Source: a virus. From it: DNA of 64,000 bases. The position numbers and the translations under genes are program-made. Position 1 is the first letter of the stretch, and each line of letters opens with the position of its first letter. The notes under the pieces are model-generated. The model worked only from the letters and a program-made list of their open reading frames with translations. It had not been told where the DNA came from and searched no databases. Location of the stretch: IMG/VR virus record IMGVR_UViG_3300042387_002331; one strand, 5' to 3'. Below are positions 5,929-64,000 of the stretch, in pieces.

Positions 5929-6173
5929 AAAAAGTAGTTTGTATAAACGATAGAAAACAACCTGAAGGAGGAGAACTTGTTGAAGGGAAAGAATATGAAG
6001 TTGAGGAAGAGTTCATCAACAACTATGAACAAAAAACATTTGTCATAGCAGGTATTAACAATTACGGAATGACCAAACTTGGAATGCGCTGGTATGGTTA
6101 TGATGCAAAACGATTTGCAGATTTAGATGCTTTAGCAACAGAAACATATGAACACGCTTATGCCTATAATTAA
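5925..6173 (+). CDS. Hypothetical protein
   Basis: Coupled ORF. Confidence 0.55.
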   Translation: MKKVVCINDRKQPEGGELVEGKEYEVEEEFINNYEQKTFVIAGINNYGMTKLGMRWYGYDAKRFADLDALATETYEHAYAYN

Positions 6174-6174
6174 T

Positions 6175-6969
6175 ATGAAAAAAATAAAAATATCACACGA
6201 GGTACCATTTTGCCTCTTAGAAAAAAGTAGAGAATTCAACGACTACGACTATTGTTTACCCCATTTAATGGATGAAAATGAAGAGTATCGTGATTTCTTC
6301 TACAAATCAAAAGAAATGGGTCGCTATATTGTAATGGATAATTCACTCCATGAGCTAGGTGAAGCATACAATACAAAGCGATTAATATATTGGATAAATG
6401 AAATTAAACCAGATGAATTTATTGTACCTGATGTTTGGGAAAATGCAAGAGCATCAATTAAAAACGCAGAAGAATGGGTTCAAATTAAACTTCCTGAAGG
6501 GGTATTAAAAGTTGCTGTAGTTCAAGCGAAACACATATGGGAAGCTAAAGACTGTGTTCAAGCATATAAAAATTTAGGATACCAAAAAATAGCATTTTCA
6601 TATGGTGCTTCATATTATAATGAATTATGCCCACATCCAAATAAAGATTTAGGTAAAGCAATTGGACGATACATGGCTGTTCATAAGTTATACAACAATA
6701 AAACATTAACCATGTTTGATCGTGTACATTTGCTTGGAACCGCTTCACCTATTGAATTTGGAATGTATAAAGATATTGAATGTATTGAATCTATAGATAC
6801 TTCAAATCCAATCATGGCTGCAATTGGAGAAATGCCCTATACAAAAATGGGATTGCATCAAAAACCACTTGCTAACATGAACAAATACCAAGATATGAGC
6901 ATTGACTTCTTAAACGAAGATCTAGTAGAATTCAATGTTGAAATGTTTAGAAAAATAAATGAATTATAA
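6175..6969 (+). CDS. dpdA: TGT-fold DNA guanine transglycosylase-like protein (DpdA family, subfamily uncertain)
   Basis: Colinear TGT motifs MDNS, PDV, AVVQ, VHLLG and SIDTS; located just upstream of queC/queD/queE/folE. Confidence 0.7.
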   Translation: MKKIKISHEVPFCLLEKSREFNDYDYCLPHLMDENEEYRDFFYKSKEMGRYIVMDNSLHELGEAYNTKRLIYWINEIKPDEFIVPDVWENARASIKNAEEWVQIKLPEGVLKVAVVQAKHIWEAKDCVQAYKNLGYQKIAFSYGASYYNELCPHPNKDLGKAIGRYMAVHKLYNNKTLTMFDRVHLLGTASPIEFGMYKDIECIESIDTSNPIMAAIGEMPYTKMGLHQKPLANMNKYQDMSIDFLNEDLVEFNVEMFRKINEL

Positions 6970-7230: not shown

Positions 7231-7404
7231 ATGGATAAATTAACAAAACAAGAATTTGAAAAATTTCGTGAAGTCTGGAAATCTGAATGGTACGACCATT
7301 GGAGGCTCTTGGATATTGACTTTAAAGTTTATATGTTAATGAGAGGATTAACCGAAAAACAATTTAAAAAATTAAATAACGACGAATTATGGAAAAACAT
7401 GTAG
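7231..7404 (+). CDS. Small hypothetical protein (57 aa; not in ORF track)
   Basis: ATG 7231 to TAG 7404, filling the gap before queC. Confidence 0.5.
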   Translation: MDKLTKQEFEKFREVWKSEWYDHWRLLDIDFKVYMLMRGLTEKQFKKLNNDELWKNM

Positions 7405-8336
7405 TAATTTCCCTGTCTGGAGGAATGGATTCCAGCACACTTTTGTTACGCTGTCTAAAAGAATACGACACAGTAACAGCAATTTCATTTGATTATGGAC
7501 AAAAACATCGAGTTGAGCTTGAACGAGCTAAATCGTTGGTAGATTACATTAATGAAACCAAAATTAAAGTAACAGGAAATTTAGATCAAATTCAAAATGA
7601 TTTATTGAAATTTCATGGTATAACTCCGGAAGGTTTTAGTGATATGATTAAAGAAGTAAAAGGCGAAGCATCCCCTATCACTTATCGTGTCATCAAATTA
7701 GACGGATTAACAGACTTACTCAACTCAGCTTTAGTAACAGGTGGAGATGAAGTACCTGAAGGACACTATGCTGAAGAAAATATGAAAGCAACAGTTGTTC
7801 CTAACCGAAACAAAATATTTGCTTCTATTGTTCAAGCAGTTGCACTTTCAATTGCAGATAAAACAGGTGAACAATGTGATATTGCACTTGGAATACATGC
7901 AGGTGACCATGCAATTTATCCTGATTGTAGACAAGAATTTAGAGATGCAGATGACCATGCCTTTAGAGTAGGTAACTGGGGTTCTGAAAAAGTAGGTTAC
8001 TTTACACCTTATCTTGATGGAGACAAATTTATTATTTTGCAAGATGGAGAAAAATTATGTAGTGAATTAGGACTTGATTTTAACGAAGTATACTCACGTA
8101 CAAACACTTCATATAAACCAATTTACCATGAATTCGCTTACGAAGAGGGAGATGACATTGTTGAAGTCAAAGAATGGTTTTCCGATTACAAATCAGCAAG
8201 TTCCGTAGAACGTGTAGAAGCATTTATTAAACTAGGAAGAAAAGATCCTGTATTATATGCAGACGAAGAAGGTCCTGTAACATGGAACCATGTAGTAAAA
8301 GAAGTAACAAAAGTACTTGAAACACATGAAGGATAG
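7389..8336 (+). CDS. queC: 7-cyano-7-deazaguanine synthase
   Basis: SLSGGMDS PP-loop, FDYGQKH, VPNRN, HAGDHAIYPDCR. Confidence 0.93.
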   Translation: MEKHVVISLSGGMDSSTLLLRCLKEYDTVTAISFDYGQKHRVELERAKSLVDYINETKIKVTGNLDQIQNDLLKFHGITPEGFSDMIKEVKGEASPITYRVIKLDGLTDLLNSALVTGGDEVPEGHYAEENMKATVVPNRNKIFASIVQAVALSIADKTGEQCDIALGIHAGDHAIYPDCRQEFRDADDHAFRVGNWGSEKVGYFTPYLDGDKFIILQDGEKLCSELGLDFNEVYSRTNTSYKPIYHEFAYEEGDDIVEVKEWFSDYKSASSVERVEAFIKLGRKDPVLYADEEGPVTWNHVVKEVTKVLETHEG

Positions 8337-8520
8337 TTGTATATTAGACTGGGAATTATACCAAAAAGTTATGGAAAAGAAAAAAACAATTAAAGTTTGT
8401 ACTGGAGTAGGATTAGACCAAATCACTCCTGAATACATTACAATTTATCTTTCTGATATTGATACAGAAATTAAAAAACGAGGACGTAAACCAAAAACAA
8501 ATGAAAATGGCAAAATTTAA
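8326..8520 (+). CDS. Hypothetical protein with KRGRKPK
   Basis: ORF bridging queC and queD. Confidence 0.45.
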   Translation: MKDSCILDWELYQKVMEKKKTIKVCTGVGLDQITPEYITIYLSDIDTEIKKRGRKPKTNENGKI

Positions 8521-8971
8521 TTCAACAAAATTATTTGACGGTTACTCAACATGTTTCCGTCAATGGAAAGCAGATGGAACACATTGTAAATTTTTACATG
8601 GTTATGCAGTTTCATTTAGAGTATGGTTCGAAGGCGAACTAGATGAAAGAAATTGGGTTTGGGATTTTGGTGGTATGAAACGTGCAAAAACACAAATCGA
8701 AGGTATGTCTCCAAAAGACTATTTTGCATACCTTTTAGACCACACTACAATCATAGCTGAAGATGATCCTCATTTAACTTTATTTAAACAAATGAATGCG
8801 GAAGGTATTATACAATTACGAATTTTACCTGCTACAGGATGTGAACGATTTGCAGAATATTTATATCATACAATAAATGATTTTCTAGCAGTAGAAACAA
8901 ACGGCAGAGTTAAAGCCACTAAAATTGAAGTTTATGAACATGAAAGAAACTCAGCAAGTTATGGAGAATAG
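8507..8971 (+). CDS. queD: 6-carboxytetrahydropterin synthase
   Basis: HCxxLHGY, WDFG, LDH, GCE and EVYEHERNSA motifs. Confidence 0.9.
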   Translation: MAKFNSTKLFDGYSTCFRQWKADGTHCKFLHGYAVSFRVWFEGELDERNWVWDFGGMKRAKTQIEGMSPKDYFAYLLDHTTIIAEDDPHLTLFKQMNAEGIIQLRILPATGCERFAEYLYHTINDFLAVETNGRVKATKIEVYEHERNSASYGE

Positions 8972-9028: not shown

Positions 9029-9277
9029 ATGAAAGAAATACTTTATTTCAGCGCAACATGGTGCCAACCATGTAAAAATTTTAAACCGATTATGGAACGT
9101 GTAGGGCAAACAATCCCAGTTGCATTTATTGATGTGGATGCAGATCCTGGCATGACCTCAGCTTATGGTATAAAAAGTGTACCTACGCTTGTATTTTTAA
9201 AAGACGGGCAAGTTGCTCAAAAACAATCTGGAGTTTTATCTGAATCGCAAGTAAAAGATTTATGGAATCAAAATTAG
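9029..9277 (+). CDS. trxA: Thioredoxin
   Basis: WCQPCK active site, SVPT. Confidence 0.9.
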   Translation: MKEILYFSATWCQPCKNFKPIMERVGQTIPVAFIDVDADPGMTSAYGIKSVPTLVFLKDGQVAQKQSGVLSESQVKDLWNQN

Positions 9278-10044
9278 GAAGAATAGAAGATTATAACAAA
9301 GTTTTACCAATAGTAGAACTATATAGATGTGTTCAAAGCGAGGGATCTCGTTTTGGACGCCCTACAATAGCAATTAGAACAACAGGTTGTACTCATAGAT
9401 GTTTCTTTGGTGAAGGTGGTTGGTGTGACAGTTGGTACACCTCAATCCACCCAGAAAAAGGAACATTTACATTTAACGACATTATCAAAATATATGACGA
9501 AAACCCTCATATTAAAGAAATGATGTTAACAGGTGGTTCACCTACAATGCACCCTAAATTAGTTAATGAATTAACATATTTTGCATATGAAAGAGGTATT
9601 ATTATTACTATTGAAACCGAAGGTTCTCATTTCCTTCCTACTGACTATCCTATATCTCTTATATCGCTCAGTCCTAAATTTGGTAATTCTATACCCGTAC
9701 TTGGTGCTGTTACGCCTCAAGGAGCGATTGTGGATCAAAAAATGATTGATCAACACAATAAATTTCGCTTAAAATTAGATACAATCAAACAAATGATTAC
9801 TCATCATTCCGATTACCACTACAAACCAGTTTGGGATGGTACTGAAGAAAATTTAGCTGAAATTGAAGCGTTTAGAGTTGCATTAGATATTCCAAAACAT
9901 AAAACCTTTATTATGCCTGCTGGTGATACAAGAGAAGAGTTAATTAAAATGTATCCACTTGTATTTGATATGTGTGCTGAAAAAGGGTACAATATGACAG
10001 GACGAGACCACATTATTGCATTTGACACTAAAAGAGGGGTATAG
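9262..10044 (+). CDS. queE: 7-carboxy-7-deazaguanine synthase (radical SAM)
   Basis: VQSEG, IRTTGCTHRC...WCDS, LTGGSP, IETEG, SLSPK. Confidence 0.9.
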   Translation: MESKLGRIEDYNKVLPIVELYRCVQSEGSRFGRPTIAIRTTGCTHRCFFGEGGWCDSWYTSIHPEKGTFTFNDIIKIYDENPHIKEMMLTGGSPTMHPKLVNELTYFAYERGIIITIETEGSHFLPTDYPISLISLSPKFGNSIPVLGAVTPQGAIVDQKMIDQHNKFRLKLDTIKQMITHHSDYHYKPVWDGTEENLAEIEAFRVALDIPKHKTFIMPAGDTREELIKMYPLVFDMCAEKGYNMTGRDHIIAFDTKRGV

Positions 10045-11770: not shown

Positions 11771-12469
11771 ATGTCAGAAAACACACGTAGAAAAAAACAC
11801 ACAGAACTAGAATGTGTACAAGTAGGTTTTGCAAATGGAGTTGCACCTGGTTTTCCCCTTACTGAGAAAGAAAAATGGGATATGGTTGATAAAGCAGAAG
11901 CTGCTTACGGCCAATTCCTAGATGCTTTAGGATGTGATTGGCGAAACGACCCAAATTCATCAGAAACACCTCGTCGAGTAGCTAAAGCTTATGTATTTGA
12001 CTTATGGGCAGGTAGATATACTGCAATGTCAGATATTACTTCATTTCCATCAGACGGATACGATGGCATTGTAATTGAGCGAAATATCCCAGTTACTTCA
12101 ATGTGTTCACACCACCACCAAACAATTGGAGGAGTAGTTCATATTGGCTATGTAGTTGGAGAAGGTGGACGAGTAATTGGTTTATCTAAACTAAACCGCA
12201 TTGTAGAATTATTTGGCCGTAGAGGAGCAATTCAAGAACAGTTAACCTCAGCAGTCCACAATGCAGTAAACAAAGTATGTGAAGGAAATAGAGGTATTAT
12301 CGTTACAGTAGTAGCAACTCACAATTGCGTATCTTGTAGAGGAGTAAAACATCAAGGTGCTTCTATGGTTACTACCAAAGCATCAGGTGTGTTTATTGAA
12401 AACGATAACCAAGCACGTAAGGAATTTTTCGATAGTATTAAAATTAATAATGGTGGACACCAAATTTAA
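11771..12469 (+). CDS. folE: GTP cyclohydrolase I
   Basis: ETPRRVAK, SMCSHH, IGLSKLNR, IQEQLT, HNCVSCRGV. Confidence 0.95.
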   Translation: MSENTRRKKHTELECVQVGFANGVAPGFPLTEKEKWDMVDKAEAAYGQFLDALGCDWRNDPNSSETPRRVAKAYVFDLWAGRYTAMSDITSFPSDGYDGIVIERNIPVTSMCSHHHQTIGGVVHIGYVVGEGGRVIGLSKLNRIVELFGRRGAIQEQLTSAVHNAVNKVCEGNRGIIVTVVATHNCVSCRGVKHQGASMVTTKASGVFIENDNQARKEFFDSIKINNGGHQI

Positions 12470-53590: not shown

Positions 53591-53673
53591 AGTCAGGTGG
53601 TGTAATGTAACACGGTCCTAATTTAATATGGTGAATACCAGGGCTAGTGCAGGTTCGAGTCCTGCCCTGACTA
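53591..53673 (+). ncRNA. tRNA-like RNA 2 (83 nt) with ~20-nt anticodon loop
   Basis: Same acceptor AGTCAGG/CCTGACT, D arm GTGT/ACAC, T arm GCAGG TTCGAGT CCTGC. Confidence 0.7.
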
Positions 53674-53706
53674 CGCTGCTCTTCATAACAGTAGTTTTCT
53701 TTTTAC

Positions 53707-57764: not shown

Positions 57765-57968
57765 ATGACAGAAAAAATGCAAGAAAATCCACAAAGAGTT
57801 AAATTAGTGATTGATGTACTCAAAGATATAGAAGTGGATGGTGAAACAATGCAATGCATTCTTAAAGAAATAAAAATGGACTGGCAAATGTTAAGACAAT
57901 TAATGTTAACAATGCCAATTGAACAAGTAGAATATTTAATTGAAGAACGTAAAGATTTAGGATTATGA
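57765..57968 (+). CDS. Hypothetical protein
   Basis: aaagttATG leader. Confidence 0.55.
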   Translation: MTEKMQENPQRVKLVIDVLKDIEVDGETMQCILKEIKMDWQMLRQLMLTMPIEQVEYLIEERKDLGL

Positions 57969-58249
57969 AATTTGATTTTGAAAGAGGAAAAAAACAATTG
58001 CTAGAGTGGATGGACACTGAATTTGATTGTTCATATGGTTATACACTCCAGTATATTAAGGAAATAGATGATATAGATGATATCGAATTTGAAGTAGAAT
58101 CGTTTCGTCGATTTGAACGAGATTGGAAAGAAAAAATATCATCAATTAAAAAAGCAACTACAATGATAGAAGTGTTTGCAACATTGGTAGACACTGCTAT
58201 TGAAAATGATGATAATTTTATTATTGAACTTTTTACAACAGAACAATGA
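57965..58249 (+). CDS. Acidic hypothetical protein
   Basis: Coupled ORF. Confidence 0.55.
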   Translation: MKFDFERGKKQLLEWMDTEFDCSYGYTLQYIKEIDDIDDIEFEVESFRRFERDWKEKISSIKKATTMIEVFATLVDTAIENDDNFIIELFTTEQ

Positions 58250-58473
58250 TACCAAAAGACAAAGCAATAGAATTAGTTAACAAATATCTTGAGCTAGGTA
58301 AGGATTTTACCCGAGGTGTTTCTATGCAAGAGTTTTCAAAAGAATGTGCCTTAATTGTAGTGGATGAGATATTAAATAATTTTGGTAGTAGAGTAGGAGA
58401 TAAAATACATTATTGTAATTATTTAACTATTCAGTATTATGAAGAAGTTAAACAAGAAATAGAAAACCTTTAA
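58246..58473 (+). CDS. Hypothetical protein
   Basis: Coupled ORF. Confidence 0.55.
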   Translation: MIPKDKAIELVNKYLELGKDFTRGVSMQEFSKECALIVVDEILNNFGSRVGDKIHYCNYLTIQYYEEVKQEIENL

Positions 58474-58532
58474 ACAGAGGAATAAGCTTATTAAAAGAAA
58501 TTTCGTATATTGAATGTATAAAAAAAGAAAAC

Positions 58533-58916
58533 ATGAGTACAAGAAGTAGAATAGCAATTGAAAACGAATCAGGTATAGTAAATTCAATTTACTGTCATTT
58601 TGATGGGTATGTTGATGGTGTAGGTATAACATTATTCAAACACTACGATAAAGAAAAATTACAAAAACTAATTGAACTAGGAGATATCAGTTCATTAGGA
58701 GAATCAACTGAAGATACAGTAGCATATTGTCGTGATCGAGGTGAAGATTTACATTCAACTAGTTATTTAGATGTTGAAGGTTTGTTTGAGTTAGGTTTTG
58801 GTAGTAGTGTAGAATTTGTTTATTGTTTAAACAGAGATGGTATTTGGTTAGTATGTAGAGATGGTTATAATCGGGTAGAATTTTTAAAAGAAATGCTTGA
58901 GGAATGGGGGTTTTAA
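58533..58916 (+). CDS. Phage protein (STRS.I...YCH.DGY type)
   Basis: Class B cassette; motif recognisable from other phage early proteins. Confidence 0.7.
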   Translation: MSTRSRIAIENESGIVNSIYCHFDGYVDGVGITLFKHYDKEKLQKLIELGDISSLGESTEDTVAYCRDRGEDLHSTSYLDVEGLFELGFGSSVEFVYCLNRDGIWLVCRDGYNRVEFLKEMLEEWGF

Positions 58917-58960
58917 CATCCTTTTCGTATATTACAATAAATTAAAAAGAAATAAAAGTT

Positions 58961-59242
58961 ATGAAAAAAGCAGACATGATCAAAAAAATTCAAGAAAAAG
59001 ATGCAAAGCTATATTTGCAAACAAAACAATATGAATCACGTTTTGGAAGAGATTCAAATTTAGCCACTGCATATCGAAATGAGTGGATGGCCATTTATGA
59101 ATTGATGAAAGAATTAGATATCAAATCAGATTACAGCTTACCAGAATGGGATAAAGCAATGGAAATCATAAATGAAATGAGAATAATTGAACAATTTGAA
59201 GCCGATGATTTTGCTAAACGAGACATAGGTTATCCATTATGA
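58961..59242 (+). CDS. Hypothetical protein
   Basis: Class B cassette. Confidence 0.6.
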   Translation: MKKADMIKKIQEKDAKLYLQTKQYESRFGRDSNLATAYRNEWMAIYELMKELDIKSDYSLPEWDKAMEIINEMRIIEQFEADDFAKRDIGYPL

Positions 59243-59450
59243 AAGTAGGAGATAAAGTAACATGCTACAAATACCCCGGAACATGGACGTTAGTGTGGTA
59301 TAAAGCAGGAGATATGACGTGTGCAATACAAAACGAACGATACAGATACATTGTAAATGTTTCAAGTTTAAAGAAAGTAGAGGAATAAGCTTATTAAAAA
59401 GGCTTTCGTATATTGAGTGTATAAATAAAAAAAGAAAAAAAATAAAAGTT

Positions 59451-59786
59451 ATGAAAATTACAAACAAAACATTAATGGTAGGCTTCAATACAGAAGTAAA
59501 ATTAGGAAACAACGATGCAATTGAGTTAACATTAATCAACCAAGCATTCATCAGTGAAGGTAAAGATGGTGGTGTTGAAGTTGATTTAGAAATTGGTCTT
59601 GATTTTGCAAACATTAAGTTTTTAGGAATTGATGTTGATTCAAGTTATAAAGGGTTTAGTGAATTTAAAAAATCATTATTGAGCTTAGGTATTGATTTGG
59701 ATAAGTTGATTGATGAAAAAGAAACAGAATTAGCTAATTCAGGAATAGAAGATAAATTAAAATTAATGTTTAAAGGTAAATTTTAA
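59451..59786 (+). CDS. Hypothetical protein
   Basis: ATG 59451 after the class B promoter at 59382. Confidence 0.6.
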   Translation: MKITNKTLMVGFNTEVKLGNNDAIELTLINQAFISEGKDGGVEVDLEIGLDFANIKFLGIDVDSSYKGFSEFKKSLLSLGIDLDKLIDEKETELANSGIEDKLKLMFKGKF

Positions 59787-59846
59787 AAGGACGCCCTCTA
59801 TTAAGAGGGCTTTTGTATATTACAATAAATTAAAGAAATAAAAGTT

Positions 59847-60059
59847 ATGAAATTAGAAATCACAGATAAAGAAGTATACGAAACAAAAGTATATACTATT
59901 GAAGGAGAAAATGGTGAAGGTTATGTAGTAACTATTCACGATTCATTTATGGATTTTATTATGGATGAAGTTCAAGTAGTTGACTTTAACAACAATGAAA
60001 TTGATGATAAAGAATTGATTGATGAATTAATTACTTTAATAGAGGAATCAAATAATTAA
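59847..60059 (+). CDS. Highly acidic small protein
   Basis: Class B cassette. Confidence 0.6.
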   Translation: MKLEITDKEVYETKVYTIEGENGEGYVVTIHDSFMDFIMDEVQVVDFNNNEIDDKELIDELITLIEESNN

Positions 60060-60100
60060 AAGAAAAATCGTATATTACAATAAATTAAAAAAAGAAAAAT

Positions 60101-60445
60101 ATGAAAAAAGTAGAATTAGTAGCACAATTAGAAGCAGCAAAAGCATTATCATCACAAGTTGATATTGATAAAGTAATAGCATTGATAAATGGATTAGATG
60201 ATGTTAATACAGTAACAAAACTAAGTGAAGAATTGATTAATGAATTATCAAATGAAATTGAACGAGTATTAGAGTATAATTGTGATGATTTAGTTAATAA
60301 AGATGATGTTGAGTTTTCTATTAACTATGGAAACGTAATTGAAGTAGATAGTGCACAAATAGATGTTTATGAAACAATGAGTCATATCAATGCAGTGTTG
60401 CAACAATTTGAACTTGAAGATAAAGTAGAGGACGAAGATAAGTAA
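60101..60445 (+). CDS. Highly acidic protein
   Basis: Class B cassette. Confidence 0.6.
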   Translation: MKKVELVAQLEAAKALSSQVDIDKVIALINGLDDVNTVTKLSEELINELSNEIERVLEYNCDDLVNKDDVEFSINYGNVIEVDSAQIDVYETMSHINAVLQQFELEDKVEDEDK

Positions 60446-61128
60446 AAAAGCTTTCGTATATTGAATGTATAAATTAAGAAAATAAAAAGAAAAGTTATGA
60501 GTAAATTAAATGATTTTGAAAAGTTTCTAATCAATGATGGATTAGATAAAGTACAAGAAAACATGATTGCTGAAATTGAAAAAGTAGAACAGAGTGGAAA
60601 AATGCCTATTATGACTGCAGGTTTTGTAAAAATGACTATTAGGGATTTGAAATTGAAATTAAAATTGAATAAATAAGGTTATGAGCTACACAGCAAAACA
60701 AATTGATAACATGTCAATTGAAGCCATTGAAGAACTAGCCAATACATTAACCGAAAAAGAATTAAGTAAATGGTGTGGAAGTGGTTATAGTGGAAAGTGT
60801 TATATTGAAATAATTAAAAATAGATAATATGAAAGAATTAGATTTTTATATATATGCATTTAGTGATGGCACAACAGCGCCATTTGAAATAAATGGGAAA
60901 CAAGTTATAGGGATTTGGTTTGTATATTCAAAATAAAAGTTATGAAAGACATACATTTTACAGATGAACAAGGTAATGAATACTTTGTTATGGTTAGAGA
61001 GGAAAAAGTAATAGTATTTAAAAATAAAACCCAAATAGAAGATGTAAGGTTTTATGTAGATGAATTAACTGAGGGAATAGAAAATATAAAATAGAGATCG
61101 TATATCCCAGATAAATAAAATAAGACAG

Positions 61129-61296: not shown

Positions 61297-61712
61297 ATCA
61301 TCAAATATACATTGTCAAAGAAACGAGAATCAACGTGAAATAAATGCAAACGAACATCGTCAACGGAACTCGTCAAAAATGAAAATCAACGATGATTATC
61401 AACAAAAGGAAATCGTCAATGTGTGGAATGAAAATCAACATGGGGAATGTAAATCGTCAATGATGATCATCAACAAAACGAAAATCGTTAATAGTATGTG
61501 ACAAGTGTGTTTGGCAATGAATGGTGTGAAAAAGTGGTGTGTCTAACCCCTCCATTGCCCGTCCACGTCCTTTTTAAAACTTTCCAAAAGTATATACAAA
61601 AAACATGAAAAAACACGTCCCCCACACGGGGAAATGGGGGGATGGGGATCGTCATATAATGAAAATCGTTAAAGAAATCGTCAAAAATACTTGGAAAATT
61701 GAATGAAAATCA
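61262..61712. repeat. Non-coding region with dispersed direct repeats AAATCGTCAA and AATGAAAATC (candidate origin or genome terminus)
   Basis: TCGTCAA x6 plus TCGTTAA/TCATCAA variants, AATGAAAATC x4, a C-run/G-run hairpin near 61619-61641, no credible long ORF. Confidence 0.65.
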
Positions 61713-62023
61713 TTATCTTCACATATGTATAACTGAATATTAAGGTATTCTCCATAATGGAAACAGAACAGAGGAACGCAACAGCATTAGGACACAGAAA
61801 GAACCTCCCAGTAATCAAAAAATGGAAAACAACATTGATATTCGTGTGTGAGGTAGGAACAGTTGAATATTAAACCGAGACCCACACCGCGATTATAGCC
61901 AAACGTGGCGTTTGAAAAACATTAAAAGAAGCTTGCAAGGAATTTGCAGGCTATCAGACTGCTCAGGAATAGATTTCATCAAATAATTTTCGTATATTAC
62001 AATAAATTAAAAAGAAAATTGTT

Positions 62024-62215
62024 ATGAAAGTAAAAGATGGAAAAGAGGTATTAGATTTTGAAGGAATTTTTATTGAATTAGATGAAAAAAGTAATGTTGG
62101 AATTTTTATTAGTAATGATAGTGAGTGTGATTTTGGAGAATATGAATGTGTAGGAGATAGTGGTGAAATAGAAATTAATGGGATGTTAATTAAATGGGGG
62201 GTGGTGTATGGTTAA
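62024..62215 (+). CDS. Small acidic protein encoded without any cytosine
   Basis: Class B promoter at 61966, gttATG leader; zero C in the CDS. Confidence 0.65.
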   Translation: MKVKDGKEVLDFEGIFIELDEKSNVGIFISNDSECDFGEYECVGDSGEIEINGMLIKWGVVYG

Positions 62216-62289
62216 TGATTAAACTACCTGAGGAATAAAATAATTAAAATAAATTTTGTATATTGATTGTATAATTAAAAAAATAAAAA

Positions 62290-62613
62290 ATGAAAGTTAT
62301 GAAAAATGAAGTAAAAAAATTAGGACGTCCTGTAAATGAAAACAGTGTAAGACAATTAAGGATTAAAGAATTAGAAAGTAAAAGAGAGTTAGGATTGTTA
62401 AAAAGAGGACGACCTGTAAATGAAAATAGTGAAAGACAAAAGAGGATTAGTGAGTTAGAAAATAAAAGAAAAAATGGAGAGTTGAAAAAAGGACGTCCTG
62501 TAAATGAAAATAGTGAAAGACAGAAAAGACTAAAAGAATTAGAGAGTAAAAGAGAGTTAGGTTTAGTTAAAAGAGGACGACCTAAAAAAGATAATAATGA
62601 AATAGCTGCTTAG
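62290..62613 (+). CDS. Basic protein with four GRP (AT-hook-like) motifs in 28-aa repeats
   Basis: GRPVNENS.RQ.R..ELE.KR..G..K x3, then GRPKK. Confidence 0.75.
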   Translation: MKVMKNEVKKLGRPVNENSVRQLRIKELESKRELGLLKRGRPVNENSERQKRISELENKRKNGELKKGRPVNENSERQKRLKELESKRELGLVKRGRPKKDNNEIAA

Positions 62614-62696
62614 GAATAAAATAATAATCATCATCAAAGGAAGCCTCTTATTAAAGAGGCTTTCGTATATTGATAACATAATTAAAAAGATAGAAA

Positions 62697-62894
62697 ATGA
62701 CATTAAGTGAAAAAGTATTTGAATTTGAGTGTGAAATTAGTGGTGAACAAGTTTTAGAATTTGAGATAGAAATTGATAAATTGAAAACTTTAGAAGATGT
62801 AAAAAATTATTATTTGTATGAAAGAGGATGGATTAGTGATGATAGTTTAGTGGATTTGTTAATTGATTTTATTATTGATTTAAAAATGGAATAA
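62697..62894 (+). CDS. Small acidic protein (3 C in 198 nt)
   Basis: Class B cassette. Confidence 0.6.
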   Translation: MTLSEKVFEFECEISGEQVLEFEIEIDKLKTLEDVKNYYLYERGWISDDSLVDLLIDFIIDLKME

Positions 62895-62945
62895 GTTAAT
62901 TAAAATGAAATTCGTATATTGAGTGTATAAATAAAAAGATAGAAA

Positions 62946-63155
62946 ATGACAGTAAAAGAATTAATTGAAGAGTTAGAAAAAGTAGAAAATAAGAATTTAC
63001 AAATTAGAATACATGGGACGGGTCCTGATGGATGGATTTATTATAATGAAGTAGAATGGTGTGAGAGAGAAAAAGTATGTGAAGAAATTTTTAGTGAAGG
63101 TGATTATGAAACTATCTATAAATATAGATTTGTTATAAGTGGAGGAATGTTTTAA
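62946..63155 (+). CDS. Small protein (MTVKELIEEL type)
   Basis: Class B cassette. Confidence 0.6.
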   Translation: MTVKELIEELEKVENKNLQIRIHGTGPDGWIYYNEVEWCEREKVCEEIFSEGDYETIYKYRFVISGGMF

Positions 63156-63198
63156 TACATTTCTCCTTCGTATATTGATGATATAAAAAGAAAATAAA

Positions 63199-63327
63199 AT
63201 GAGTGAAGAAGAAAGAAAAGAATTAGAATTGTTAGCATTTTTATTAATTCAGGAAGTGAATACTGTACAATTTGTATTTTTACCTGAAACATTGAAGTTT
63301 GAAGATGCTATAATCAGATTAAACTAG
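63199..63327 (+). CDS. Small hypothetical protein (not in ORF track)
   Basis: ATG after the class B promoter at 63144. Confidence 0.45.
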   Translation: MSEEERKELELLAFLLIQEVNTVQFVFLPETLKFEDAIIRLN

Positions 63328-63387
63328 GGAATAACAGAGTTAAAGTATATTTCGTATATTGATTGTATAATTAAAAAAATAAAAAGA

Positions 63388-63564
63388 TGAAAAACGAAGC
63401 AATTGTAAAAGGACTTATTATGAATGGAATCAATGAAAAAAATATTGAATTGTTTTTGAAATTGAAAGATGTAGCAGAGGAATTAGGATTTGAATTCAGT
63501 GAATATGATGGAATGGATGATTTATTTTATGTTACATTTGAAATAAAAAATGAGTTTAAATAGG
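63388..63564 (+). CDS. Small hypothetical protein (not in ORF track)
   Basis: ATG after the class B promoter at 63328. Confidence 0.5.
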
Positions 63565-63621
63565 AATAACGTTACTGAAATATAATTCGTATATTGATTG
63601 TATAATTAAAAAGTGAAAAAT

Positions 63622-63903
63622 ATGAATTTTGTAAATGAAGTAAAACGATTCCAAAACACTAAATTGAATAAATTGTTGATGAAACATTTTAATACATTGT
63701 ATAATGATTTTGAAGTTATTGAATTTAATGTTGATGAATTGGACAATGATATTGTTGAATTTGTGAAAAAAATTAATGAATATAATAAAACATATAATGA
63801 CGATTTAGTATACAATTATAGAGGAATGGGTATATATTTTGTTGAAAGTGAAAATAAAATATGGATGGAGGATTTGTTCAGCATATTATTTGAACGGGAC
63901 TAA
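63622..63903 (+). CDS. Hypothetical protein
   Basis: Class B cassette. Confidence 0.55.
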   Translation: MNFVNEVKRFQNTKLNKLLMKHFNTLYNDFEVIEFNVDELDNDIVEFVKKINEYNKTYNDDLVYNYRGMGIYFVESENKIWMEDLFSILFERD

Positions 63904-64000
63904 CAAAATTAAACTATAGTTCGTATATTGATTGTATAATTAAAAATGATAAAATGAAAAGATTTAAAGTAATTAAAAGAAAATTTAAAATTGATAGTGT

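What the first reader, a model, noticed from the sequence alone, without database searches (positions are those of the whole stretch)
62001..63200. Cytosine-free genes: template-strand G avoidance in a phage that appears to modify its guanines
Seen: there is no C on the + strand from 62001 to 62223 (223 nt). This covers the whole CDS 62024..62215, whose protein has none of the residues that require a C (A, P, T, H, Q) and uses only AGT for Ser. Further C-free runs are 62229-62325 and 62789-62912. CDS 62697..62894 has only 3 C, all obligatory (Thr, Gln, Thr), and 7 of the 8 C in 62946..63155 are obligatory. My hand count is about 48 C in 62001-63200 (~4%) while G is abundant; a sampled polymerase line had 11 C in 60 nt. 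Even at 10% C, a given 223-nt C-free run has probability ~6e-11. The extreme bias starts right after the repeat-rich non-coding segment, with milder depletion at 58-61 kb. Established: DpdA/QueCDE/FolE pathways put 7-deazaguanine derivatives into phage DNA, in some phages at very high substitution. Inference: these may be the first genes read from incoming modified DNA by host RNA polymerase. Selection may have removed template-strand G (modified bases that slow or stall transcription) even at the amino-acid level, until an early product relieves the block. Alternatives are C-less mRNA escaping CTP depletion, ddhCTP (viperin) chain termination or C-containing RNase sites such as MazF ACA. I know of no description of either strategy in phages.
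Basis: partly seen in the sequence, partly recalled or inferred. Interest (0 to 1): 0.92.

Follow-up and report, generated by a model that had tools for sequence, protein, structure and literature searches.

The report
Phage genes written without cytosine
A freshwater phage and many relatives carry small early-type genes whose messages use only A, G and U, so the proteins lack five of the twenty amino acids; selection keeps them so, I found no published description, and the cause is more likely something that acts on cytosine in the new RNA than the phage's modified guanines.

Summary
It lies in a mosaic of single-gene cassettes, each with a Bacteroidota-type promoter, in an Immutovirus-like myovirus encoding DpdA3, QueC/D/E and FolE. 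Relatives hold about 30 cassette families with 2% C or less and C-free runs up to 1,522 nt. In one family, 120 proteins (68-100% identity) contain no Ala, Pro, His or Gln; its DNA has 1 C in 8,481 nt. This is selection, not mutation: Gln, CGA, TAC and TCR codons, which deamination or C>A could only turn into stops, vanish too, while AGY Ser compensates. C is excluded from the transcription start to at least 8 nt past the stop, in every context. Modified guanine is not sufficient: six DpdA3 relatives, CP220 and phiST have no gene at 2% C or less, and 7-substituted deazaguanines block initiation rather than elongation in vitro. It is not excluded either, because no DpdA-free carrier could be tested. 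Best guess (0.4): escape from a host CTP- or RNA-cytosine hazard. This scan's unverified notes report similar cassettes in unrelated viruses. Cultured phage immuto_2-6A (gp143) allows a test.

The parts
61300..61988 (.). Repeat-rich, mostly non-coding segment (AAATCGTCAA-type repeats) with normal C content; left boundary of the module. Possible terminus, packaging or origin region (inference only).
   Evidence: a homologous segment precedes the module in G006 and L016
61989..62000 (+). Promoter box TTCGTATATTAC, a variant of the Bacteroidota -7 element. The last C (62000) falls at position -5, so the start site is predicted near 62005.
   Evidence: motif found 32 times on + and once on - in the contig; T-12 to G-5 numbering from PMC6847099
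62001..62223 (+). 223-nt C-free run covering leader, CDS and 8 nt after the stop
62024..62215 (+). C-free CDS, 63 aa, acidic, no A/P/T/H/Q. Eight database homologues (60-82% identity) also lack A, P, H and Q and carry at most one Thr.
62290..62613 (+). 107-aa basic protein with four GRP (AT-hook-like) repeats, 5.9% C. Its paralogue at the other end of the module (65275-65610 in extended window numbering) has 12.5% C.
   Evidence: (PF02178, E 0.096, weak)
62641..62672 (+). G+C hairpin (terminator-like) overlapping the next promoter; C is tolerated here
   Evidence: sequence, metaplot
62697..62894 (+). 65-aa cassette, 3 C, all obligatory
62946..63155 (+). 69-aa cassette, 8 C, 7 obligatory
63199..63903 (+). 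Three further cassettes (63199-63327, 63387-63563, 63622-63903), about 4-7% C
63954..64000 (+). Start of a 75-aa cassette (1.8% C). The module continues outside the window to about 67.2 kb, where a second non-coding segment closes it.
57765..61100 (+). Upstream cassettes with the same promoter and milder depletion (mostly 6-10% C)
6148..6969 (+). DpdA3-type DNA guanine transglycosylase
   Evidence: 38% to immuto DpdA, E 3e-42; match to phiST CGPG_00065
7389..12469 (+). QueC (7389-8336), QueD (8501-8971), QueE (9262-10044) and FolE (11771-12469), with other genes between them. No QueF or DpdN homologue in the 124-kb contig, which is incomplete.

Best explanation
Shown: these are real, conserved single-gene cassettes, and selection removes cytosine from their sense strand between the transcription start and just past the stop codon. 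It does so at synonymous sites, in leaders and at the cost of Ala, Pro, Thr, His and Gln. Inferred: they are early genes read by host RNA polymerase. Each C in the nascent message carries a cost at the time they are made, and C-free messages escape it. The cost is most likely imposed by the host: loss of CTP, a CTP analogue of the ddhCTP type, or an RNase or modifying toxin that acts on any cytidine. The products would be counter-defence or takeover proteins that have to be made while that pressure acts. Their mosaic gain and loss among close relatives would follow the patchy occurrence of the host activity. No such host system was identified here.
For: Selection: genes chosen only on third-position C also lose Gln (0.29x, p 6e-12), CGA (0.10x) and TCR (0.12x), and AGY Ser rises 1.8-2.5x; genes chosen only on positions 1 and 2 have no TAC. 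Orthologue pairs differ at 21.6% of A/G synonymous sites but 2.0% of T/C sites, against 13.8% and 16.4% in controls. In 120 homologues, 16,455 residues hold 0 A, P, H or Q and 4 T, and 2 of 210 variant states need a C. A second family has 1 A, 2 P, 1 H and 1 Q in 16,399 residues. DNA of 21 variants has NNT/NNC 1282/0, against 21.6% NNC in ordinary genes. Transcript-shaped limits: 0-0.1% C from just after the -7 box to the ATG, and up to 12.7% in parts of the promoter upstream. The first C after the stop is never within 7 nt in 14 families, against 135 of 282 controls (p 1.6e-4). Depletion is uniform along the CDS and holds in TC, AC and GC contexts. G is kept, reaching 28% in a 1,218-nt three-gene block. 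A homologue lying directly behind another gene without its own promoter has 11% C. The trait is patchy among DpdA3 genomes.
Against: No CTP-depleting or cytidine-general anti-phage system was found in the literature searches. From my own knowledge, prokaryotic viperin products block phage RNA polymerase rather than the host enzyme, and these promoters look host-read. Cassettes with the same promoter, and a tRNA-like gene in the module, are C-rich and would have to wait for relief. A 25- to 100-fold depletion needs only weak selection if the population is large. Sense C and template G cannot be told apart by sequence. The folds gave no functional clue.
Confidence: 0.4

Rival explanations
1. One reading: all G in the virion DNA is a 7-deazaguanine derivative, so a C-free sense strand leaves a template strand of fully canonical bases. 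Some hosts' RNA polymerase, or transcription-coupled repair, handles modified template G badly, so the first genes avoid it.
For: DpdA3 with QueC/D/E and FolE is present. DpdA3 phages are 100% modified. All five long genomes with very C-poor cassettes (window contig, G001, immuto, G013, G016) have DpdA3, and the DpdA-free distant relative Mel-JY01 has none. Ethynyl- and vinyl-7-deazaG were the most inhibitory bases in vitro. The transcript-shaped limits fit this model equally well.
Against: G002, G006 (78% DpdA identity to the window), G011, G012, G014, G015 (immuto-like QueF and DpdN), CP220 and phiST carry DpdA3 and have no gene at 2% C or less. In vitro inhibition was at initiation, with no pausing (PMC4838386), and promoter Cs and Gs are often kept. 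Replication genes must also be read from parental modified DNA. Unverified scan notes report the trait in unrelated viruses.
Confidence: 0.2
2. Extreme avoidance of the terminator Rho, which loads on C-rich, G-poor nascent RNA that ribosomes do not cover.
For: Rho-driven purine bias of sense strands is established in Bacillus (PMC13323073). C is lost while G is kept, in leaders and between genes too. Depletion is graded across all promoter cassettes.
Against: E. coli Rho reads CC and UC dinucleotides and excess C over about 150 nt. Here GC-context C is removed at least as strongly as TC, Ala (GCN) is excluded, and T rises although T-richness favours Rho in B. subtilis. Going from 3% to 0% C should gain little under a threshold signal. 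I did not find the specificity of Bacteroidota Rho described.
Confidence: 0.2
3. No attacker: weak selection for fast transcription under low CTP in starved hosts, or for unstructured, quickly translated mRNA, made effective by very large populations.
For: C declines gradually over about 10 kb of cassettes. C-free mRNAs fold more weakly (-10.3 against -17.4 kcal/mol per 100 nt). Translation in Flavobacterium is tuned by mRNA structure (PMC6847099, abstract).
Against: G at synonymous sites is barely reduced (15% against 20%), and folding is not weaker than codon shuffles (z -0.75). All-or-none neighbours lie behind identical promoters. Five amino acids are given up in well-folded proteins (pLDDT 94).
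Confidence: 0.12
4. DNA-level site avoidance in first-injected DNA, as in the T5 first-step region: a C-free strand contains no G/C-bearing palindrome and no site with modified G on both strands.
For: GATC, TCGA, GGCC, GCGC and CGCG are absent from 62.0-65.3 kb. The module is flanked by non-coding repeat segments. Some blocks are C-free across internal promoters.
Against: The limits follow transcripts. G+C hairpins and normal cassettes are interleaved, and the flanking non-coding DNA has normal C. Termini are unknown.
Confidence: 0.05
5. Strand-specific mutation (deamination of the exposed non-template strand, or G>T on the template) or replication skew.
For: Third-position C is replaced mainly by T.
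Against: CAR, CGA, TCR and TAC codons are lost as well. Val, Ile, Met and Tyr do not rise. Between the two GRP-repeat paralogues, Arg outside the GRP motif shifts from CGN to AGR. The edges at cassette limits are sharp.
Confidence: 0.03

Closest known systems
Rho-avoiding purine bias of sense strands (Bacillus subtilis; PMC13323073)
   Same: Selection on the base make-up of the mRNA strand; C disfavoured relative to G.
   Different: There it is a genome-wide statistical bias against excess C and T. Here C alone is totally excluded from chosen cassettes, T is not reduced, and the amino-acid alphabet shrinks to 15.
Motif avoidance in early or first-injected phage DNA and in RNase-resistant mRNAs (T5 first-step-transfer region; ACA-less messages resistant to MazF) - from own knowledge
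   Same: A sequence feature is purged from genes that must work before or during an attack.
   Different: Those avoid 3-6-base motifs. Here a whole base is excluded in every context and on one strand only.
[quoted passage not shown]
   Same: DpdA3 plus FolE and QueD/E/C. Gene order matches immuto (DUF932 gene, cassette module, HD hydrolase). Immuto itself has one 1.4%-C gene (gp143, 68330-68686).
   Different: No QueF or DpdN in the contig, so the base probably differs from fdPreQ1. CP220 and phiST have no C-free genes. The passages of the paper that I read do not mention strand bias, and the word transcription does not occur in it.
Terminal early or host-takeover modules of SPO1 and T5 - from own knowledge
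   Same: Many small genes with repeated strong host-type promoters between non-coding segments, including a small basic DNA-binding-like protein.
   Different: A terminal position is not shown here, and those modules are not known to me to be C-free.

Membership tests
DpdA3 7-deazaguanine phages | DpdA3 transglycosylase gene | tested here: met
   best hits are immuto DpdA (38%, E 3e-42) and Firehammervirus homologues; also matches phiST CGPG_00065
DpdA3 7-deazaguanine phages | FolE, QueD, QueE and QueC genes | tested here: met
   Pfam PF01227, PF01242, PF04055, PF06508; 62-71% identity to the immuto proteins
DpdA3 7-deazaguanine phages | Complete replacement of G in virion DNA | not testable with these tools
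   needs LC-MS; shown only for immuto, CP220 and phiST
Template-G (modification) avoidance model | Trait present wherever DpdA3 is present | tested here: not met
   8 DpdA3 genomes have no gene at 2% C or less
Template-G (modification) avoidance model | Trait absent from phages without G modification | tested here: inconclusive
   only Mel-JY01 was available (no DpdA, no trait); all 10 near-complete close relatives have DpdA3
Rho-avoiding purine bias | C low relative to G on the sense strand | tested here: met
Rho-avoiding purine bias | Preferential loss of CC/UC dinucleotides and low T | tested here: not met
   GC context is depleted at least as much as TC; third-position T is 47% against 36%
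Rho-avoiding purine bias | Expression restored by loss of Rho | not testable with these tools
   needs an experiment
Motif-specific RNase avoidance (MazF type) | Loss of one short motif, other C contexts kept | tested here: not met
   TC 0.006, AC 0.011 and GC 0.005 against 0.17-0.26 in controls
First-injected terminal module (T5/SPO1 type) | Located at the physical genome end or in a terminal repeat | not testable with these tools
Deamination-type strand bias | CAR and CGA codons protected; Val, Ile, Tyr and Met enriched | tested here: not met

The most novel reading that the evidence does not exclude
Phages keep a set of counter-defence genes written in three letters (A, G, U), encoding folded proteins of 15 amino acids, so that these genes can still be expressed while an undescribed bacterial defence removes or poisons CTP or attacks any cytidine in RNA.
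Probability: 0.3. Interest if true: 0.92.

Novelty: categorically new. Interest (0 to 1): 0.78.

Why it matters
Natural genes kept free of one base by selection, and proteins that fold confidently without Ala, Pro, His, Gln and (almost) Thr, are something I could not find described. The pattern points to a pressure on single cytidines in early phage transcripts. That pressure is an unknown defence, an unknown property of Bacteroidota transcription, or a cost of 100% guanine modification. Each answer would be new. C-freeness is also a simple sequence flag for candidate counter-defence genes. The question can be tested now, because the cultured phage immuto_2-6A carries such a gene and has a laboratory host.

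Tried and rejected
Mutation or skew as the cause: rejected. tRNA or codon-reading explanations: rejected, because NNC and NNT share a tRNA and leaders are C-free too; the phage's 8 tRNAs include Thr, Ser(TGA), Ala and Gln. Plain AT pressure: rejected, because G stays or rises. Pfam and PHROGs gave no function for the C-free proteins. Family A2: poor model (pTM 0.35) and no PDB match. Family A3: confident model (pLDDT 94), but best Z was 7.3 (rmsd 2.6, 81 aligned; PilO- and tail-terminator-like arrangement), with no significant viral or Atlas match, so no function follows. A gene-content comparison of carriers and non-carriers showed no obvious linked gene. Sequencing runs were unavailable, so termini, polymorphism and expression are untested. 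Literature searches for CTP-depletion defence and for cytosine-free phage genes returned nothing relevant; the library lacks most subscription journals. My dN/dS estimate (0.48 against 0.28 in controls) is crude because it counts forbidden C changes as available sites.

Full report
Observation. The window is the minus strand of a 124-kb virus contig with 14.4% C. The low zone is unique in the contig: 9-7% C at 58-61 kb, 15% in the repeat-rich segment at 61.3-62.0 kb, 4-7% at 62-65 kb, then normal.

Context. The contig is collinear with Flavobacterium phage immuto_2-6A: a DUF932 gene, a run of small genes, then an HD hydrolase. It encodes a DpdA3-type protein with QueC, QueD, QueE and FolE. DpdA3 phages replace all their G (10.1101/2023.04.13.536721). 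Most small genes from 47 to 66 kb have their own promoter box TT(C/T)GTATATT, a variant of the Bacteroidota -7 element (PMC6847099). No RNA polymerase large subunit is annotated in immuto, so host transcription and early timing are inferences. On that numbering the last C before the 223-nt run is position -5, so the run begins at the start site.

Conservation. Relatives in IMG/VR and metagenomes show the same module, with runs of 576, 702 and 977 nt, 1,218 nt and 1,522 nt. The genes are a mosaic: 30 of 391 cassette families have a member at 2% C or less, and C-free and ordinary cassettes alternate behind identical promoters. Cultured immuto has one such gene, gp143, at 1.4% C. The window's own 63-aa protein has homologues down to 60% identity that still lack A, P, H and Q.

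Selection, not mutation. Cassettes picked only for low third-position C have also lost codons that C>T could only turn into stops (Gln 0.29x, CGA 0.10x) and codons that C>A could only turn into stops (TCR 0.12x). Cassettes picked only on positions 1 and 2 have no TAC. Val, Ile, Met and Tyr do not rise, and Ser is kept through about twice as much AGY. Orthologue pairs differ at 21.6% of A/G synonymous sites but 2.0% of T/C sites; controls give 13.8% and 16.4%. The two paralogues of the GRP-repeat gene form an internal control: in the C-poor copy Ala falls from 12-16 to about 2, and Arg outside the GRP motif moves from CGN to AGR. For one 137-aa family, 120 proteins of 68-100% identity hold no A, P, H or Q in 16,455 residues. 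Twenty-one of its genes hold 1 C in 8,481 nt, with NNT/NNC 1282/0. Remote members are mostly C-free too, while one that lies directly behind another gene without its own promoter has 11% C. A second family behaves alike and folds with pLDDT 94, so these are real proteins.

Shape of the rule. C is absent from just after the -7 box through leader and CDS, evenly along the gene, and for at least 8 nt after the stop (0 of 14 families within 7 nt, against 135 of 282 controls; p 1.6e-4). It persists in upstream promoter DNA and terminator hairpins. All 5' contexts are depleted; AC is the most tolerated in partly depleted genes. G is kept or raised. The cost is therefore per C of the message, or equally per G of the template, which sequence alone cannot separate.

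The modification link. All ten near-complete relatives encode DpdA3. Genes at 2% C or less occur in the window contig, immuto, G013 and G016, and G001 has genes at 2.5-3%. They are missing from G002, G006, G011, G012, G014, G015, CP220 and phiST. G006 is the closest of these to the window and has one 48-aa ORF at 2.7%. G002's contig ends inside the module, and G014 and G015 are 93% complete. Modification is thus not sufficient. Bacterial RNA polymerases tested on 7-substituted 7-deazaG templates were inhibited at initiation, without pausing (PMC4838386). Whether modification is necessary could not be tested: the only DpdA-free relative, Mel-JY01, lacks the trait. Notes from this scan describe C-free early cassettes in gut, marine, giant and archaeal viruses. 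I could not check them and use them only as a lead that the trait is convergent.

Mechanism. I put 0.4 on a host-imposed hazard to cytidine in nascent RNA (CTP loss, a CTP analogue, or a cytidine-general RNase or modifier). It explains the transcript limits, the context independence, the near-absolute exclusion and the patchy, anti-defence-like distribution, but no such system was identified. Template-G avoidance gets 0.2 and Rho avoidance 0.2; against Rho, GC contexts and Ala are excluded and T rises. Weak speed or structure selection gets 0.12, DNA site avoidance 0.05 and mutation 0.03. That selection maintains the pattern I hold at about 0.9.

Verdict. The feature is real and conserved, and I found no description of it in the papers I could search. 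It works like sequence avoidance in early genes (T5 first-step DNA, MazF-resistant messages, Rho purine bias) but fails their defining motif tests and extends to a whole base and five amino acids. Interest 0.78.

Noticed in passing
window 62290-62613 and L001:18391-18726 (minus strand; 65275-65610 in extended window numbering): Two paralogues of a basic protein with GRP (AT-hook-like) repeats bracket the module. The Arg codon of the GRP motif stays CGN in most C-poor copies although other Arg codons became AGR, which hints at a DNA-level constraint (GGACGWCC).
   Followed up: partly
L001:18300-18369 (minus strand): Degenerate tRNA-like element inside the module (Rfam tRNA 31.7 bits, missed by ARAGORN), followed by further structured-looking G+C-rich non-coding sequence and a 45-nt hairpin repeated 862 nt apart.
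   Followed up: no
window 61300-61990: AAATCGTCAA-type repeats; immuto has ACCCGT repeats at the matching place (66.3-66.9 kb). Candidate terminus, packaging or origin signal.
   Followed up: partly
promoters 47.6-66.4 kb: The upstream promoter element here is GGAATA or GGACTA about 20 nt before the -7 box, not the TTG seen in immuto. It often doubles as the previous gene's stop codon, and terminator hairpins fill the spacer.
   Followed up: partly
L437:3826-3909: The three-gene C-free block ends in GGGT repeats, where neighbouring cassettes have G+C hairpins.
   Followed up: no
G013, G014, G016: DpdA3 relatives with other pathway sets: G013 and G014 have only a remote QueE match and G016 has no QueC match, so the inserted base may vary within the clade.
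   Followed up: no
window 53591-53674: tRNA-like gene with an undetermined anticodon among the promoter cassettes; a similar one is in L010.
   Followed up: no
contig about 500 nt upstream of the HD hydrolase gene (69372-69468 in extended window numbering): A roughly 97-nt C-free run is conserved in many relatives outside the module.
   Followed up: no
PP395634.1 (L216-L219): 'Microcystis phage Mel-JY01' shares capsid (54%) and terminase (51%) with immuto and encodes ribosomal protein S21, so its stated cyanobacterial host is doubtful (inference).
   Followed up: no
G000 contig and relatives: The contig encodes a family B polymerase and a homologue of immuto gp001 (annotated family A polymerase), while immuto has no match to the PolB; polymerase exchange within the clade.
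   Followed up: no
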